Made by a program: the position numbers
DNA from: Podarcis muralis
Lineage: Eukaryota
Assembly: GCF_964188315.1 (NCBI RefSeq)
Contig: NC_135661.1
Coordinates: forward strand, 9,858,001 to 9,922,000
Reading direction: 5' to 3'
Length of the DNA: 64,000 bases
Shown here: piece by piece, positions 13,601 through 25,600 of the stretch
How positions within the stretch are numbered: position 1 is the stretch's first letter
Layout: each line of letters starts with the position of its first letter

Positions 13601-16600
13601 GAGTTCTTCACGTTCTGCTAATTTCTTTTGAAACAAATATTATGTTCAAGCCCTGATGCGCCAGATCTTTTCTCCTTATGAGTCCAGTGGAGGGGAATTT
13701 GAAGGCAGAAAATTTGAAGACCCGCAGTGACCTCACTGGAGATCTCAGCCATGCCACAGAAACCATGGCTGTACGCCACAGTGTGGCTTCAGAAGGGAAT
13801 GTGCATGTTCAGGGGGAGGCAGGATTAGTGCTGGAGACCATCAGCTGGGGGGGAGCGGGGCTATTCACACACAGCCTGAGGCTTCGTCCCAGGGGTATCT
13901 ACCTGGATACGAAGTGCTGGATCTTGTGAGGCAGCTTCTTTGCCCTTAGTGACCTGCCTGGAGTGGACCCCATGATGGCTGAGAGGGATGTCCAGCAGTG
14001 GCCTCTCCACACCCGGACACCTTTACAGCTGCTCCATCCGAAAGCGTCCACTTTTGATGAGGGTGGGAGGGCTAGGATGGCTGAGAGAGGAGGAAAAAAG
14101 AGATTGATGGCTTGGAAATCCTCCCAGGTGCCTCAGGACCCCTCGGTGTGGCTGTGCCAGGCACTTGGGCAGGTCTGGGGGCGGGGGGGGGGGTGCCCCT
14201 CAAGGCTCAGCAGGGTTGGAAATAAAAGTCCACCACATGAGAAGGCCCTGGGAGCTGCGTGAGGCCCAGAGGTTCGTTGGCCCTGGAAGAGGTGCACAGG
14301 AACCAGCCAGGATGGGCCGCCGACTCAAACCGCCAAGCCCCGTCTTTGTTAGAGGAGAAGAAGGTGAAGCGGCTGGACTCCTTCCTGCCGCCTTTGGGCA
14401 GATCTGTGATGTTGACGGTCTGCGGAGAAGGAGAAAAGGAAGCGATCTGGTGAGGGAGGGAGGCAGGCAGCTGACCCCTGTCTGCTTTGGGCTAGCGTCC
14501 CCTTGACTAGTGAGAGGCAAGAGAGGGTTCCTAAGGAAGACAGAACATAAGAAGAACCTGCTGGATCAGGACCATGTCCCTCGTGGCCCAGCATCGAGTT
14601 CTCGCACAGGCCAACCAGATGGCCCAATTGGAGGCCCACAAGCAGGATTCGAATGCAAGAGTCCTGTGGCTTCCAGCAACTAGTAATTCAGAAGCATTTT
14701 TGCCTCCAACTGTGGAGGCAGAGCAGACCTATCATGGCTAGTAGCCCTTAATAATAATAATAATAATAATAATAATTTATTTATACCCCGCCCATCTGGC
14801 TGAGTTTCCCCAGCCACTCTGGGCGGCTTCTAATCAAGTGTTAAAAACAATACAGCATAAAATATTAAAAACTTCCCTAAACAGGGCTGCCTTCAGATGT
14901 CTTTTAAAAATAAGATAGCTACTTATTTCCTTCGCATCTGAAGGGAGGGCGTTCCACAGGGCGGGCGCCACCACCGAGAAGGCCCTCTGCCTGGTTCCCT
15001 GTAACCTCGCTTCTCAGAGGGAGGGAACCGCCAGAAGGCCCTCGGAGCTGGTCTGAGCTGAACAATGGAGGTGGAGACGCTCCTTCAGGTATACAGGACC
15101 GAGGCCGTTTAGGGCTTTAAAGGTCAGCACCAACACTTTGAATTGTGCTCGGAAACGTACTGGGAGCCAATGCAGATCTCTCTGCACCGGTGTCATGTGG
15201 TCCCGGCGGCCACTCCCAGTCACCAGTCTAGCTGCCGCAATGGCCCGCTCCTCCATGTAAAGCAGGCACCCCCAAACTCAGCCCTCCAGATGTTTTGGGA
15301 CTACAGTTCCCATCATCCCTGACCAATGGTCCTGTTAGCTAGGGATGGTGGGAGTTGTAGTCCCAAAAACATCTGGAGGGCCGAGTTTGGGGATGCCTGA
15401 TGTAAAGGCATGGATTTGTCAGGTAGCAGCTACCCAGACTTTCCAAGGCCAGCCTGCCGCTGAAGGGTAGAGTCCTTCCTGCTCCCGCCACCCCTCCCTG
15501 GCTCTCTGCTCTTAAGCTGGCACGTGACTGTTGGAGGATTTATGGTGAGGCTTCATGGCCCCTCCACGAGCACATCCTATGGGGATGCCAAACTGCCTCT
15601 CCTCTCCTCACCTCAAGCTGCAGCGCAGGCCAGGCGCCGGCAGAGCAGGCCAGGCACCTCTTCCCGTCCTGAATGCTCAAGATGATGGAGAACTTCTCGT
15701 GGTCAAAGGCCCGGTTGTGAATCCAGTAGATCTTCTCTAGGGATGGGAAAGAGTAGGTGAGAGAGTCTGTTGGCATCCTGTGGGGAATCCCATTAGAGAG
15801 GCTGGAGGTGTGAGGGCATTCCCAGGGGTCATACTGATGGGTGATGTCAGGGTTAGGGGCTCAGTAGCAGTCAGAGGAGGGACGCGGGTGGCGCTGTGGG
15901 TTAAACCACAGAGCCTAGGACTTGCCGATCAGAAGGTCGGCGGTTCGAATCCCCGCGACGGGGTGAGCTCCTGTTGCTCGGTCCCTGCTCCTGCCAACGT
16001 AGCAGTTTGAAAGCACGTCAAAGTGCAAGTAGATAAATAGGTACCACTCTGGCGGGAAAGTAAATGGCATTTCCGTGCGCTGTTCTGGTTCGCCAGAAGC
16101 GGCTTAGTCATACTGGCCACATGACCCGGAAGCTGGACGTCGGCTCCTTCAGCAAATAAAGCGAGATGAGCGCCGCAACCCCAGAGTCGATCACAACTGG
16201 ACCTAATGGTCAGGGGTCCCTTTACCTTTTAGCAGTCAGAGGACGAGGGCGTGGTCTACCCTTGCCTCTTTTGCTGACCTGGAGGGAGGTGGGGGGGACG
16301 ACCTTCAAGCCCAGGATGCTGGTGGCCTTGCATACGCAACCTGCCCCTAGCTTAGAGGGCCACAACCAGGGAAAAGAAGGGTGTCCAGTTTCCTTTCCCG
16401 GCGACTGATGCCAAGACACGGGAGCCCATAAGAGAAATCCAGAGCTGAGGATCGAGGTAGAAGTTGGGGATGGCAGAAGCGGTGAAGAGGCAGAACAAGA
16501 GTGTGAGAATGAGCAGGAGAAAGTCTGCAGGAGAGGGAAGCGATGGTGGAGGCAGGAGCACATAGTGGTGCACACATGGGCACGCACACAAACAAACAAA

Positions 16601-22600: not shown

Positions 22601-25600
22601 CAGCGGGTGCACTTGGATATCCAAGTCGGGGAGCATGCCAACAATTACCCAGAGATTGCAGCCAAGGACAAACTGACCGAACTGCAGCTAAGAGCCAGGC
22701 AGCTCTTAGACCAGGTGGAGCAGATCCAGAAGGAGCAGAACTACCAAAGAGTAAGTAACGGATTTCTTTCTTTCTTTTTTTTTACCATAATGCCATTCAG
22801 GAGGAGGAGCGGGATCTTGAATGGCATTATGGTGGGGAGGGGGAATCTACCCTGTCCATAGTTTGTGAGGAACTTGTCAGACCTCAATGTTTAAATGGTT
22901 CCTACCTAATCACTAATACCGTACTTAATGAGCATCATCTTGAAAGGCTTTGCTCATCTGAAAGTTCAGAGAAGCACTTGCCAGATCCTAAGAACTTCTT
23001 TAGGAGGAGGGCATTCAAGCTGCATTGGTGCAGGCTGACTGGAGTTAGGGTGGCGTTTGTTGTAGGGAAATAGCCGCGGGTTTACAGGTGGTGTACCTGC
23101 AATAGACCAAGATTGGCAGGAGTTGTTCAGAGGGGGATAGTACTGGAAAGATCCTACATCTGCAAGAAGGACTCACCTGCGTAGATGGAGATGTTGGGTT
23201 GTATGGGTCTGGTGTGGGGAAGGGGAGAGGGAAGTACCTTCTCTGACTCTCGCCACCATGTTTACTTTCCAGTACCGAGAGGAGAGATTCCGCATGACCA
23301 GCGAGAGCACCAACCAGCGGGTGCTGTGGTGGTCCATTGCCCAGACCATCATCCTCATCCTCACTGGCATTTGGCAGATGAGGCACCTCAAGAGCTTCTT
23401 TGAGGCTAAAAAATTGGTGTAGCCCCCCTGACAGCACAGGCACCGTTGTTCTTCCGGTTCCACTGAGCACTTATTGGCCCTCCTGGATTTGGCACAACTG
23501 AAAGGACAGATGGAAGCACAGCATGTGAAACATCTTTGGACCAGCATTTGCATACTTCCTCTTCCCTGATGAAGGGGGTGCCCTGCCCACAGAAGTCTCT
23601 CACGTGCCACCCCGTTCTTTGCTTTGCTGTGTTGCAGCAGCTGGAAAAGCCTCTGTGGGCAGTGCCCTTGTGCAGATCCAAAGGAAGAGAAAATTGCTTT
23701 CTAAGAGACTGAGTAGGCTCTTTTTTTAAAAAAAAAGTGCTTTCCTGTTTCTGGATCCTGATTGGTGGGAGTAACTTCTGGGTTGTTCTGTTCTGGTGGT
23801 TCCCTGTCGTTCTTTGCTCTTAACACGTGAGGTTTGTGGGGGCAGCCCTTGTAGTGGAGAACGGCCTGGAAGAGGAAATGGGAGGGGTGGAATAACATTT
23901 ATACTCAAACTAGGTTTTTTCTTGCTGGGGGTGGGGGTGGCCTGATACCTACTGGAACTTGGGGCGGGGGCTGCTTAGGACAACAGCAGTGGTTGCCTAC
24001 AGGGTTCTGGCAGCATCTCCTCTTGTAACCCTCCCCAGTTTCCAGCGGAGGGGCTAGATAACCATTGTGAACATGGGGTTAGCAAAAGTTTAGGCTCCAG
24101 GTGTGTTTCAAGTGCTTTCACAGAAGGGATCTCTAGACTTCTGCAAATGAGCCTAGTTTAAGGATACCCGCAGGTAGTATCTTTTAATTGCACAGAGAAG
24201 AGTTTCCACTTGGATGAGTAGGGTGTTTTTTTATACGGCCCTGCTAATGCCACTAGTGTGGATGGCAGGAAGCTTGCTAGGAGACAGCATTAAGTAAGTT
24301 GCCATTTATGTACCATGGAGCTCCTTAACAGCCTTTCTTGAGTTTGGAAAGAGAGGCCTCTACCTATGCAAAAGTATGCCTGATGATTTGTGGGTGACAG
24401 CAGAGCCAGAGCATGGAATGGTGGAGAATTTGAAATGCAGTTATCTCCCCCTCCTCTTCCCTGTGTTTTATTTCCTGCCCACAACGGTAAATTCTTAATA
24501 ATGTTCCTTGTTACAGTTCTGGAGTGAAATAAAATTTCCTGCGAAAGGCTTTCTCTTCCTTGTGTTACTGATTTGGGGTTTGGGTGGGGGTACGGTGACA
24601 AGGGGGTCTGAGCTCAAGAGGAAAATATAATTGGCTCTGGGACTAGGCTCCTCCTGCAAACTTATTTTTGGCAACGGAGACCCCCACAACCAGCAGCTTC
24701 AAACTTTTTTTTTGTGGGGAAGGAGTAAGGTGGGCCCAGGCTCTCTAGAGAAGGCTCTGATGCTTTTAGGTTCCTCTGGGCCAGGGGTCTGCAACCCGCG
24801 GCTCCGGAGCCGCATGTGGCTCTTTTACACCTTTGCCGCGGCTCCGGGACGGATACTAGCGAGGGGAGGAGGCGCATTGTGCGCCCCGACACTCCCCACT
24901 GTGGCGGGCGCTGTACTGGCTGTGACGTCACATGGGGGCAGTGCGTGCGTTAGTCACGCACCGTCCTGACATCACCTTCCCGCCCACTGTCAGATCGGAG
25001 GGCAGCGGCGTGCATGCTTTAAATGTCGCAATGGTTTTGCGGCTCCCAGGTTTTTTTCCCCTTCGGAAATGGGTCCAAGTGGCTCTTTTTGTCTTAAAGG
25101 TTGCAGACCCCTGCTCTGGGCCCTTAGGCAGTGCCTGGCATGAAGAAGAAGAGTTTGGATTTGATATCCCGCTTTATCACTACCCAAAGGAGTCTCAAAG
25201 AGGCTAACATTCTCCTTTCCCTTCCTCCCCCCAACAAACACTCTGTGAGGTGAGTGGGGCTGAGAGACTTCAGAGAAGTGTGACTGGCCCAAGGTCACCC
25301 AGCAGCTGCATGTGGAGGAGCGGAGACAGGAACCCACTTCACCAGGTTAGGAGTCTACCGCTCTTAACCACTACGCCACACTGGCTCTCACTGGTATGCG
25401 AAGGGTCATAGAGCATGATGACAGATTGTTTAAATGCAGGTGAGAAAGGCCCAGTTTCCCACTCCCAGTGGCCAAGCAGATGCAACAGACTTCAGCCAAC
25501 CTATTTCTGGGGTGATGGGAGCGGTTCCTTGGTAGCTGCTCTAAACCCAAATAGGATTGGCAAGTCAAACCAGATTTGGGCTTCTTGTTGTTGTTTAGTC

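What the first reader, a model, noticed from the sequence alone, without database searches (positions are those of the whole stretch)
14207..23422. IL1RN head-to-head with TMED4: a junction of human 2q14 and 7p13 blocks, possibly the reciprocal of the join that built the mammalian IL-1 cluster
Seen: order PSD4(-) IL1RN(-) | TMED4(+) DDX56(+) NPC1L1(+), with only 3.1 kb between the two ATGs and no other IL-1-family exon recognised nearby. Known: in human, IL1RN-PSD4 ends the 2q14 IL-1 cluster with IL1B facing it head-to-head, and TMED4 is head-to-head with OGDH on 7p13. As I recall, non-mammalian IL1B is linked to CKAP2L and OGDH; this needs checking. Inference: ancestral IL1B|OGDH and IL1RN|TMED4 junctions were swapped by one rearrangement to give IL1B|IL1RN and TMED4|OGDH, and the IL36/37/38 genes expanded at the new junction.
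Basis: partly seen in the sequence, partly recalled or inferred. Interest (0 to 1): 0.65.

Follow-up and report, generated by a model that had tools for sequence, protein, structure and literature searches.

The report
Lizard IL1RN beside TMED4: known synteny break
In this lizard sequence the interleukin-1 receptor antagonist gene sits back-to-back with TMED4, so genes that lie on human chromosomes 2 and 7 are neighbours; the order is real and shared by other reptiles, but this linkage was already published and its history could not be settled here.

Summary
The N-free window reads PSD4(-), one IL1RN-like gene(-), then TMED4(+), DDX56(+), NPC1L1(+). The secreted-form IL1RN ATG (17956) and the TMED4 ATG (21068) are 3,112 bp apart. 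A family profile found no other IL-1-family exon in 64 kb. The exons match Podarcis muralis RefSeq models.

Public annotation adds two points. One predicted IL1RN isoform starts at 20966, about 100 bp from the TMED4 ATG, inside a shared CpG island. PSD4, IL1RN and TMED4 are consecutive gene models in cobra. IL1RN and TMED4 are consecutive or share a contig in horned lizard, anole, gecko and a sparrow.

The orientations fit a two-break exchange. Papers link fish, bird and reptile IL-1 genes to human chromosome 7 genes (OGDH, PURB, H2AFV). However, this linkage was published in 2014 and 2018, with the opposite polarity proposed. Sauropsids already have IL36RN-type genes, which weakens the idea that those genes expanded at a new junction. 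I could inspect no IL1B|OGDH junction or outgroup genome, because no vertebrate genome collection was on hand. Phylogeny does not resolve IL1RN orthology; synteny and gene structure favour it. Interest is modest.

The parts
176..1925 (-). PSD4, 5' part only: first coding exon 1925-837 (ATG at 1925) and second coding exon 253-176. The gene continues beyond the left end of the window.
   Evidence: The ORF 771-1952(-) is 90% identical to P. raffonei and 87% to L. agilis 'PH and SEC7 domain-containing protein 4-like'. tblastn maps residues 1-362 and 361-386 of the 1043-aa protein. No Pfam domain falls in this N-terminal part; the Sec7 and PH domains lie off the window.
3001..4000 (.). CpG island upstream of the PSD4 coding start; probable PSD4 promoter or 5' exon region (inferred).
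   Evidence: GC 0.69 and CpG observed/expected 0.82 in this 1-kb bin. No transcript evidence was available.
14207..17956 (-). IL1RN-like gene, secreted form: exon 1 17956-17847 (ATG and hydrophobic signal-like stretch), exon 2 17010-16922, exon 3 15736-15612, exon 4 14419-14207 (stop at 14209-14207).
   Evidence: Splice sites were read. Per-exon tblastn to lacertid IL1RN-like proteins is: P. muralis XP_028597091.2 matches 37/37, 42/42 and 70/71, the one mismatch being the acceptor codon. Pfam IL1 hits exon 4.
18611..18649 (-). Alternative first coding exon of predicted isoform X2. It carries no signal peptide and is spliced to an internal acceptor near 17895 inside exon 1.
   Evidence: P. muralis XP_028597092.1 (P0253) residues 1-13 match 13/13 and residues 14-29 map to 17893-17846. 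The ATG, the GT donor and the internal AG acceptor were read. This is a predicted isoform only.
20937..20966 (-). Alternative first coding exon of predicted isoform X3. Its ATG at 20966 lies about 100 bp from the TMED4 ATG, on the opposite strand.
   Evidence: P. muralis XP_077787321.1 (P0259) residues 1-10 match 10/10, with a weak E of 0.11 because the stretch is short. The ATG and the following GT donor were read.
20801..21400 (.). CpG island spanning the X3 first exon, the TMED4 start and TMED4 exon 1; candidate bidirectional promoter (inferred).
   Evidence: GC 0.69-0.77 and CpG observed/expected 0.82-1.02 in 200-bp bins. A 19-nt repeat containing GCGCATGCGC sits at 20956-20974 and 21023-21041, with a 74% copy at 20893-20911 and a further GCGCATGCGC near 21262.
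21068..23422 (+). TMED4, complete coding region in five exons. Approximate matched stretches: 21068-21262, 21385-21489, 22186-22314, 22604-22750, 23270-23419, followed by the stop.
   Evidence: Pfam EMP24_GP25L hits exons 1, 3, 4 and 5. tblastn of Anolis, Crotalus and Dermochelys TMED4 is. Identity is 91-97% to TMED4 against 76-79% to TMED9. The hits are mostly named TMED4.
26469..37410 (+). DDX56-type DEAD-box helicase gene. The ATG is at 26469 and exons were mapped to 37410. The true 3' end lies a little further on and was not mapped.
   Evidence: Pfam DEAD hits exons at 26530-26910 and 28989-29198, and Helicase_C hits 35082-35312. tblastn gives 77% identity to a platypus protein named 'DEAD-box helicase 56' and 53-78% to sturgeon TMED4-DDX56 merged models.
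46775..62834 (+). NPC1L1, partial: the large exon 46775-48364 and later exons. The signal-peptide exon was not located, and the gene runs off the right end.
   Evidence: PDB search: NPC1L1 604-625 bits against NPC1 253 bits. Later exons were seen only as ORF translations.

Best explanation
This is a real gene order, conserved in sauropsids, and one side of an evolutionary breakpoint. It is not a functional element of a new kind.

In a lacertid lizard (the exons match Podarcis muralis models), a single IL1RN-type gene follows PSD4 in the same tail-to-head order as in mammals. Its 5' end abuts TMED4-DDX56-NPC1L1, which in mammals sit next to OGDH.

Shown:
- The order, orientation and exon structure.
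- Absence of any other IL-1 gene in the 64 kb.
- The same neighbourhood in other squamates, and linkage within 0.9 Mb in a passerine bird.

Inferred:
- The IL1RN|TMED4 junction was present in the sauropsid ancestor.
- Because fish IL-1beta is also linked to 7p13-type genes in published work, linkage of 2q14-type and 7p13-type genes is the older state and the mammalian separation is derived.
- Whether one two-break exchange made both mammalian junctions remains open.

Locally, a CpG island between the genes holds the TMED4 start and the first exon of one predicted IL1RN isoform. The two genes therefore probably share a bidirectional promoter region for that isoform. The secreted isoform starts 3.1 kb away.
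For: -
- One IL-1 gene only.
- Cobra (Naja naja): PSD4 is E2320_006817, IL1RN-like is E2320_006818 (KAG8141157.1) and TMED4 is KAG8141158.1, all on a 32,026,552-bp contig.
- Phrynosoma: KAH0622990.1 and KAH0622991.1 (JD844_030875 and JD844_030876) are the IL1RN-like and TMED4 models.
- Anolis: TMED4 is XP_062817055.1 and IL1RN-like is XP_062817056.1/057.1, on a contig of the same length, 30,923,252 bp.
- Gekko kuhli: both genes are on an 84,975,888-bp contig.
- Notechis: PSD4 and IL1RN-like are both on a 910,852-bp contig.
- Passer montanus: a member of the window's clade (P0013) and TMED4 (P0152) are both on an 875,889-bp contig.
- Tree: the window's proxy sits in a sauropsid clade of 20 of the 74 rows, with 99% SH-aLRT support, holding tuatara, squamates, a turtle and birds.
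- Literature: PMC4090809, PMC5861070, PMC7144542 and PMC7464420.
- CpG island and isoform first exons.
Against: - No outgroup genome was inspected, so polarity rests on text passages of papers whose figures I could not see.
- Gibson 2014 reads the same data as fragmentation in non-mammals.
- IL1RN has not been described in fish, so the IL1RN|TMED4 junction itself has no fish outgroup.
- In sturgeon merged gene models, the gene just upstream of TMED4 on the same strand is a 5'-nucleotidase-family gene, neither IL1RN/PSD4 nor OGDH.
- 'Same contig' is inferred from equal contig lengths, and adjacency from consecutive accession numbers or locus tags. I did not see coordinates.
- The Phrynosoma IL1RN model ends in TMED4's last exon. 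That does not fit a head-to-head order in that assembly and is unexplained.
- The phylogeny does not place the gene with mammalian IL1RN, although it does not reject that placement either.
- Isoforms X2 and X3 are predictions.
Confidence: 0.6

Rival explanations
1. The mammalian arrangement is ancestral: one IL-1 cluster from CKAP2L to PSD4, and OGDH next to TMED4. The sauropsid order arose by a rearrangement in the sauropsid stem that split the cluster and moved IL1RN-PSD4 next to TMED4.
For: [quoted passage not shown] All my direct adjacency evidence is from sauropsids only. IL36RN-type genes exist in sauropsids, as expected if a multi-gene cluster predates the amniote split.
Against: Teleost IL-1beta loci carry CKAP2L together with PURB and H2AFV (PMC7144542). 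PURB and H2AFV are 7p13-type neighbours of OGDH in cattle (PMC7464420). Pufferfish shares flanking genes with chicken, turtle and anole IL-1 loci (PMC4090809). A fish outgroup that shares the non-mammalian linkage argues for a derived mammalian state, at least on the IL1B side.
Confidence: 0.2
2. Both the mammalian and the sauropsid orders are derived by several independent steps from a different ancestral order. The neat reciprocal pattern of the four junctions would then be partly coincidental.
For: In sturgeon merged models, TMED4's upstream same-strand neighbour is a 5'-nucleotidase-family gene, followed by TMED4 and then DDX56. This matches neither the lizard nor the mammalian junction. 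Rodents have a further split of the IL-1 cluster (PMC4090809), which shows the region rearranges repeatedly.
Against: Two of the three sturgeon records are flagged UNVERIFIED_CONTAM, and merged models are annotation artefacts. The 5'-nucleotidase paralogue could not be named. Sturgeons have extra genome duplications (recalled).
Confidence: 0.17
3. The IL1RN|TMED4 join is an assembly or scaffolding artefact of this genome.
For: None found. The only oddity is the Phrynosoma merged model, which concerns another assembly.
Against: There is no N in the window. The same neighbourhood is annotated independently in cobra, Phrynosoma and Anolis. A RefSeq P. muralis isoform has its first exon at 20966-20937 and its remaining exons from about 17893 down to 14207, so a single gene model spans the interval.
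Confidence: 0.02

Closest known systems
Non-mammalian IL-1 ligand loci flanked by orthologues of human chromosome 7 genes (Gibson et al. 2014, Immunogenetics, PMC4090809, Fig. 3; Rivers-Auty et al. 2018, PMC5861070, Fig. 2a)
   Same: The phenomenon is the same. In chicken, pufferfish, softshell turtle and anole, IL-1 family genes are flanked by genes that lie together on human chromosome 7. The anole has IL1RN-, IL36RN- and IL38-like genes at such a locus. IL-1beta is reported near OGDH.
   Different: The text I could read does not name TMED4. It does not give the head-to-head orientation or the 3.1-kb (or about 100-bp) spacing, and it does not propose a reciprocal two-junction exchange. Gibson et al. 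favour fragmentation in non-mammals. The figures are not held and supplements are closed, so the figures may already show this exact junction.
Mammalian IL-1 cluster flanked by CKAP2L and PSD4 (PMC5727156, Fig. 1F legend)
   Same: IL1RN lies directly upstream of PSD4 on the same strand. The gene is small, with four coding exons, a signal-peptide exon and an alternative upstream exon that removes the signal peptide. The mammalian gene structure is recalled.
   Different: Upstream of the lizard IL1RN there is no IL1F10, IL36RN or other IL-1 gene. TMED4 is there instead.
Mammalian OGDH-TMED4-DDX56-NPC1L1 block (cattle BTA4 gene list, PMC7464420; human 7p13, recalled)
   Same: TMED4, DDX56 and NPC1L1 are consecutive and on one strand.
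   Different: The gene facing the TMED4 promoter is IL1RN, not OGDH.
Chicken IL-1RN with secretory and intracellular variants (Gibson et al. 2012a, as summarised in PMC4090809)
   Same: It is a sauropsid IL1RN with a secreted form of similar size (173 aa in chicken, 178 aa here) and a form without a signal peptide. It is not at the IL-1beta locus.
   Different: The chicken gene was unmapped in 2014. Here the genomic neighbours are seen directly.

Membership tests
IL1RN (interleukin-1 receptor antagonist) orthologue | IL-1 family beta-trefoil domain | tested here: met
   Pfam PF00340 hits exon 4 at E=1.2e-11. A family HMM hits exons 2-4. PDB hits are to IL-1 family chains only.
IL1RN (interleukin-1 receptor antagonist) orthologue | Closer in sequence to mammalian IL1RA than to IL36RA or IL-38 | tested here: inconclusive
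   Per-exon PDB scores differ by exon. Exon 2 gives IL1RA 45 bits against IL36RA 14. Exon 3 gives IL-38 26.8 and IL36RA 21, with IL1RA not listed. Exon 4 gives IL36RA-type chains 59-61, IL-38 58 and IL1RA 57.7. In the tree the gene lies in a sauropsid clade whose relation to the mammalian IL1RN, IL36RN and IL1F10 clades is unresolved. Forcing it together with mammalian IL1RN is not rejected (p-AU 0.54).
IL1RN (interleukin-1 receptor antagonist) orthologue | Lies directly upstream of PSD4 on the same strand | tested here: met
   The IL1RN stop is at 14207 and the PSD4 ATG at 1925, both on the minus strand. No other gene lies between them except a Penelope-like retroelement ORF.
IL1RN (interleukin-1 receptor antagonist) orthologue | Secreted form with a signal peptide and no propeptide, plus an intracellular form made from an alternative upstream first exon | tested here: met
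   Exon 1 encodes a hydrophobic N-terminus. No IL1_propep match was found. The first exon of RefSeq isoform X2 maps to 18649-18611 and joins an internal acceptor in exon 1. No signal-peptide predictor was run, and the isoforms are predictions.
IL1RN (interleukin-1 receptor antagonist) orthologue | Binds IL-1R1 without recruiting the accessory protein (antagonism) | not testable with these tools
No fold or complex prediction was made.
TMED4 (p24 family) | GOLD/emp24 domain, and closer to TMED4 than to its paralogue TMED9 | tested here: met
   Pfam PF01105 hits four of the five exon ORFs. Over the exons, identity is 91-97% to six named TMED4 proteins and 76-79% to four named TMED9 proteins, including a lacertid TMED9.
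DDX56 | DEAD-box helicase core, and specifically the DDX56 paralogue | tested here: inconclusive
   The DEAD and Helicase_C domains are met. The paralogue name rests on 77% identity over exon 1 to a platypus protein named DEAD-box helicase 56, and on position directly downstream of TMED4. PDB holds no DDX56 to compare with, and the Atlas gave only Helicase_C.
NPC1L1 | Closer to NPC1L1 than to NPC1 | tested here: met
   The large exon scores 604-625 bits to NPC1L1 chains against 253 bits to NPC1.
PSD4 | Orthologue of PH and SEC7 domain-containing protein 4 | tested here: met
   Of the 14 hits, 12 are named PSD4 or PSD4-like, one is an unnamed cobra model and one has no name. Identity is 90% and 87% to two lacertid proteins. 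The Sec7 and PH domains themselves lie outside the window.
Reciprocal two-break rearrangement between 2q14-type and 7p13-type blocks | The complementary junction (IL1B next to OGDH) exists in the same genomes, and outgroups fix the polarity | not testable with these tools
   The only genome collection open holds bacteria and archaea. Only text passages of papers bear on this.

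The most novel reading that the evidence does not exclude
The two mammalian junctions, IL1B|IL1RN-side genes and TMED4|OGDH, are the two products of one two-break event in the mammalian stem.

Before it, a 2q14-type segment running from IL1RN-PSD4 to CKAP2L-IL1B either lay between the two halves of the 7p13-type block (TMED4-DDX56-NPC1L1 on one side, OGDH-PURB-H2AFV on the other) or was exchanged with it. Joining the segment's ends would have brought IL-1beta and its antagonist into one cluster for the first time.

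A corollary is that lizards retain an IL1RN isoform driven from the housekeeping-type TMED4 CpG island, and mammals lost that arrangement.
Probability: 0.35. Interest if true: 0.5.

Novelty: new member of a known kind. Interest (0 to 1): 0.3.

Why it matters
If the non-mammalian order is ancestral, the mammalian IL-1 cluster was assembled by a chromosomal join rather than inherited whole. That would bear on how IL-1beta and its antagonists came to be co-regulated. The lizard junction fixes one breakpoint to a window of 3.1 kb, or about 100 bp if the predicted X3 isoform is real. This makes the reciprocal-join idea easy to test in public assemblies. As it stands, the finding refines a published synteny observation and is not a surprise to the field.

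Tried and rejected
- Whole-frame translations sent to Pfam were turned back because they contained stops. I then sent stop-free ORFs.
- PDB searches with two DDX56 exons gave nothing in one case and only generic DEAD-box helicases in the other. The Atlas gave only Helicase_C. The DDX56 paralogue name is therefore not independently proven.
- The Atlas could not name the 5'-nucleotidase paralogue fused to sturgeon TMED4 models. Its hits were NT5DC3, cytosolic purine 5'-nucleotidase and 'cytosolic II like 1', at scores 0.89-0.90. The idea that it is the 2q14 gene NT5DC4 stays a guess.
- Of ten long hits from the representative search that I screened with Pfam, four were bacterial repeat proteins and one (P0025) had no Pfam family. 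These were probably matches to the intron-derived part of the query, and all five were dropped. I dropped six more rows from the tree as merged, multi-stretch or unusually long models: P0007, P0016, P0030, P0070, P0098 and P0107. Of the 112 representatives I kept only those of 140-320 aa, then added nine named sauropsid proteins, giving 74 rows.
- Rfam found nothing in the finding's interval.
- Paper searches for TMED4 with IL1RN returned 2 papers, both unrelated by title and abstract. OGDH+CKAP2L+IL-1 returned 2 papers. The six-term search returned 1 paper. The anole/chromosome 7 search returned 9 papers. None gave a text statement of the IL1RN|TMED4 junction. PMC13736523, the 2022 bioRxiv paper and PMC4662006 held nothing on it.
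- I made no structure or complex prediction, since nothing in the claim depends on one.
- I did not use the search for related loci or the genome-contig scan, because that collection holds only bacteria and archaea.

Full report
**What is in the window**

The 64-kb window has no N and is not human. Its coding exons match lacertid lizard proteins. I read stop-to-stop ORFs on both strands and tested them one exon at a time. Where a whole protein was needed I used a public protein instead.

**IL1RN-like gene (minus strand)**

The three trefoil exons are recognisable directly.
- Exon 4 hits Pfam IL1 at E=1.2e-11.
- The three ORFs hit only IL-1 family chains in the PDB sequence search.

Mapping the lacertid 'interleukin-1 receptor antagonist protein-like' proteins onto the window and reading the splice sites gives four coding exons with GT-AG borders:
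- 17956-17847
- 17010-16922
- 15736-15612
- 14419-14207, including the stop

The lengths sum to 537 nt, that is 178 codons plus stop, the length of the lacertid isoform X1. P. muralis XP_028597091.2 matches 37/37, 42/42 and 70/71 residues in exons 1, 3 and 4. The single mismatch is the acceptor codon that tblastn read through. The window is therefore P. muralis or something nearly identical to it.

**TMED4 (plus strand)**

TMED4 starts at 21068 and stops at 23420-23422, with five coding exons. Over these exons it is 91-97% identical to six named TMED4 proteins and 76-79% identical to four named TMED9 proteins, one of them from a lacertid. The finding's coordinates 14207 and 23422 are exactly the two stop codons.

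**The flanking genes**

- Upstream, on the minus strand, the acidic ORF 771-1952 is the first coding exon of PSD4. It is 90% identical to the P. raffonei protein and 87% to the L. agilis protein. Of the 14 hits, 12 are named PSD4 or PSD4-like. The ATG is at 1925, and a second exon lies at 253-176.
- Downstream of TMED4 lies a DEAD-box helicase gene (ATG 26469, exons mapped to 37410). It has DEAD and Helicase_C domains and 77% identity over exon 1 to a platypus protein named DEAD-box helicase 56. The DDX56 paralogue name was not independently proven.
- NPC1L1 follows. Its large exon 46775-48364 scores 604-625 bits to NPC1L1 chains against 253 bits to NPC1.

**No other IL-1 gene**

A tblastn of 112 IL-1 family representatives found hits with E below 0.001 only at the three IL1RN exons. 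Two chance-level hits elsewhere had E of 0.004 and 0.007. A profile built from 74 family members and run with all filters off over 2,672 six-frame ORF pieces found the same three exons (E=3.6e-36, 2e-13, 5.6e-10) and then nothing better than E=3.8.

RefSeq predicts further isoforms for P. muralis, and their first exons map inside the 'intergenic' 3.1 kb.
- Isoform X2 starts at 18649 and splices into an internal acceptor near 17895. This removes the signal peptide. It is the same trick that makes intracellular IL-1Ra in mammals (recalled) and in chicken (PMC4090809, passage).
- Isoform X3 starts at 20966, with a GT donor after 20937. That is about 100 bp from the TMED4 ATG, on the other strand.

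Both the X3 start and TMED4 exon 1 lie in a CpG island at 20801-21400, with GC 0.69-0.77 and CpG observed/expected 0.82-1.02. The island holds repeated copies of a palindrome, GCGCATGCGC. I recall this as the NRF-1 site type, but no tool tested that. If X3 is real, the two genes share a bidirectional promoter region. These isoforms are predictions, and I had no expression data.

**Is it IL1RN?**

Sequence alone does not decide.
- Exon 2 is clearly IL1RA-like: 45 bits against 14 for IL36RA.
- Exon 3 matches IL-38 and IL36RA but not IL1RA.
- Exon 4 ties all three.

In a quick maximum-likelihood tree of 74 rows, the window's stand-in falls in a clade of 20 sauropsid rows with 99% SH-aLRT support, holding tuatara, squamates, a turtle and birds. 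It is separate from clades that exact look-ups label as mammalian IL1RN, mammalian IL36RN, mammalian IL1F10 and a sauropsid IL36RN-type group (Caretta, Euleptes). The order of these clades is unresolved. Holding the sauropsid clade together with mammalian IL1RN costs nothing (log-likelihood 1.78 higher, p-AU 0.54). The PSD4 neighbour, the four-exon secreted form and the signal-peptide-less isoform favour IL1RN orthology.

**Is the junction peculiar to this lizard?**

It is not. Public annotation gives the following.
- Cobra: consecutive models for PSD4 (E2320_006817), IL1RN-like (E2320_006818, KAG8141157.1) and TMED4 (KAG8141158.1).
- Phrynosoma: consecutive models JD844_030875 and JD844_030876.
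- Anolis: consecutive RefSeq protein numbers for TMED4 and IL1RN-like, on a contig of the same length.
- Gekko kuhli: IL1RN-like and TMED4 on a contig of the same length.
- Notechis: PSD4 and IL1RN-like on a contig of the same length.
- Passer montanus: a member of the same clade and TMED4 on an 876-kb contig of the same length.

These are inferences from accession order and contig length, not from coordinates. They place the linkage at least in the common ancestor of squamates and birds. One oddity remains. The Phrynosoma IL1RN model ends in TMED4's last exon, while its TMED4 model lacks exons 4-5. That does not fit a head-to-head order in that assembly, and I cannot explain it.

**The evolutionary reading**

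The geometry works. Exchanging the right-hand parts of CKAP2L(-) IL1B(-)|OGDH(+) and NPC1L1(-) DDX56(-) TMED4(-)|IL1RN(+) PSD4(+) gives the two mammalian orders. The human orientations are recalled. The cattle order OGDH, TMED4, DDX56, NPC1L1 is in PMC7464420 (passages), and the CKAP2L and PSD4 flanks of the mammalian cluster are in PMC5727156 (legend).

Rivers-Auty 2018 puts IL-1beta near CKAP2L, SLC20A1, PSD4 and OGDH across vertebrates (PMC5861070, section 7 read whole). Eggestol 2020 puts teleost IL-1beta near CKAP2L, PURB and H2AFV (PMC7144542, passages), and those two genes lie beside OGDH in cattle. A fish outgroup thus favours the non-mammalian IL1B linkage as the older state.

Against novelty, Gibson 2014 already reported that eight genes flanking non-mammalian IL-1 loci lie together on human chromosome 7. 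That paper also reported that the anole has IL1RN-, IL36RN- and IL38-like genes at such a locus, and spoke of 'a major rearrangement event' (PMC4090809, section 14 read whole; passages). Those authors favoured fragmentation in non-mammals, the opposite polarity.

**What stays open**

I could not inspect any IL1B|OGDH junction or any outgroup locus, because no vertebrate genome collection was available. The figures of the two key papers are not held and supplements are closed, so they may already show this exact junction. Text searches found no statement of it.

Sturgeon merged gene models put a 5'-nucleotidase-family gene directly upstream of TMED4-DDX56. This fits neither the lizard nor the mammalian junction. 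Its paralogue could not be named, and two of the three records are flagged as possible contamination.

**Verdict**

The gene order is real, well annotated and conserved in sauropsids. It is one more precisely located instance of a published linkage between IL-1 genes and chromosome 7 orthologues. The reciprocal-join idea is coherent and cheaply testable, but it was not tested here.

Noticed in passing
window 7937-9757 (-): A 607-codon open frame with reverse transcriptase (RVT_1, E=1.4e-09) and GIY-YIG nuclease (E=7.4e-04) matches lies between PSD4 and IL1RN. That domain pair suggests a Penelope-like retroelement; the element type is recalled.
   Followed up: partly
window 20893-21041 and about 21262: A 19-nt repeat containing the palindrome GCGCATGCGC occurs twice exactly (20956-20974, 21023-21041), once at 74% (20893-20911) and once more near 21262. 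All copies lie in the CpG island between the IL1RN X3 start and TMED4 exon 1. It looks like the NRF-1 site type (recalled, untested).
   Followed up: partly
window 468-540 (-): A borderline Rfam U2 snRNA match (46.2 bits against a gathering score of 46) lies in the first PSD4 intron. It covers only 73 nt for a 192-position model, so it is probably a fragment or pseudogene.
   Followed up: no
window 7180-7554(-), 15932-16228(-), 21791-22009(+), 42326-42628(+), 55412-55786(+); a related element at 33586-33861, 53246-53494 and 61508-61825 (+): Many copies of a short interspersed repeat show up as near-identical ORF translations in introns of IL1RN, TMED4, DDX56 and NPC1L1 and between genes. I did not classify it.
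   Followed up: no
P0007 and P0118 (Phrynosoma platyrhinos JD844_030875 and JD844_030876): The IL1RN model ends with TMED4's last exon, and the neighbouring TMED4 model lacks exons 4-5. This is either an annotation merge or a local orientation problem in that assembly. It supports proximity but not orientation.
   Followed up: partly
P0211, P0115, P0220 (Acipenser ruthenus and A. sinensis): Merged gene models join the C-terminal end of a 5'-nucleotidase-family domain to TMED4 and then DDX56 on one strand. The paralogue was not identified. If it were NT5DC4, a 2q14 gene (recalled), it would be a second 2q14/7p13 contact in a ray-finned fish.
   Followed up: partly
window 17096-16923 (-): A UniRef P. 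muralis isoform (P0261, 170 aa) aligns without a break from 17096 through exon 2 (57/58 residues). It suggests a further predicted start inside intron 1, read straight into exon 2. The residues just upstream of the exon 2 acceptor resemble the end of exon 1.
   Followed up: no
window 46745-48103 (-) and 47017-47973 (+): Long open frames of 452 and 319 codons lie antisense to, or out of frame with, the large NPC1L1 exon. I take them for by-products of its G+C-rich coding sequence, not genes. This was not tested.
   Followed up: no
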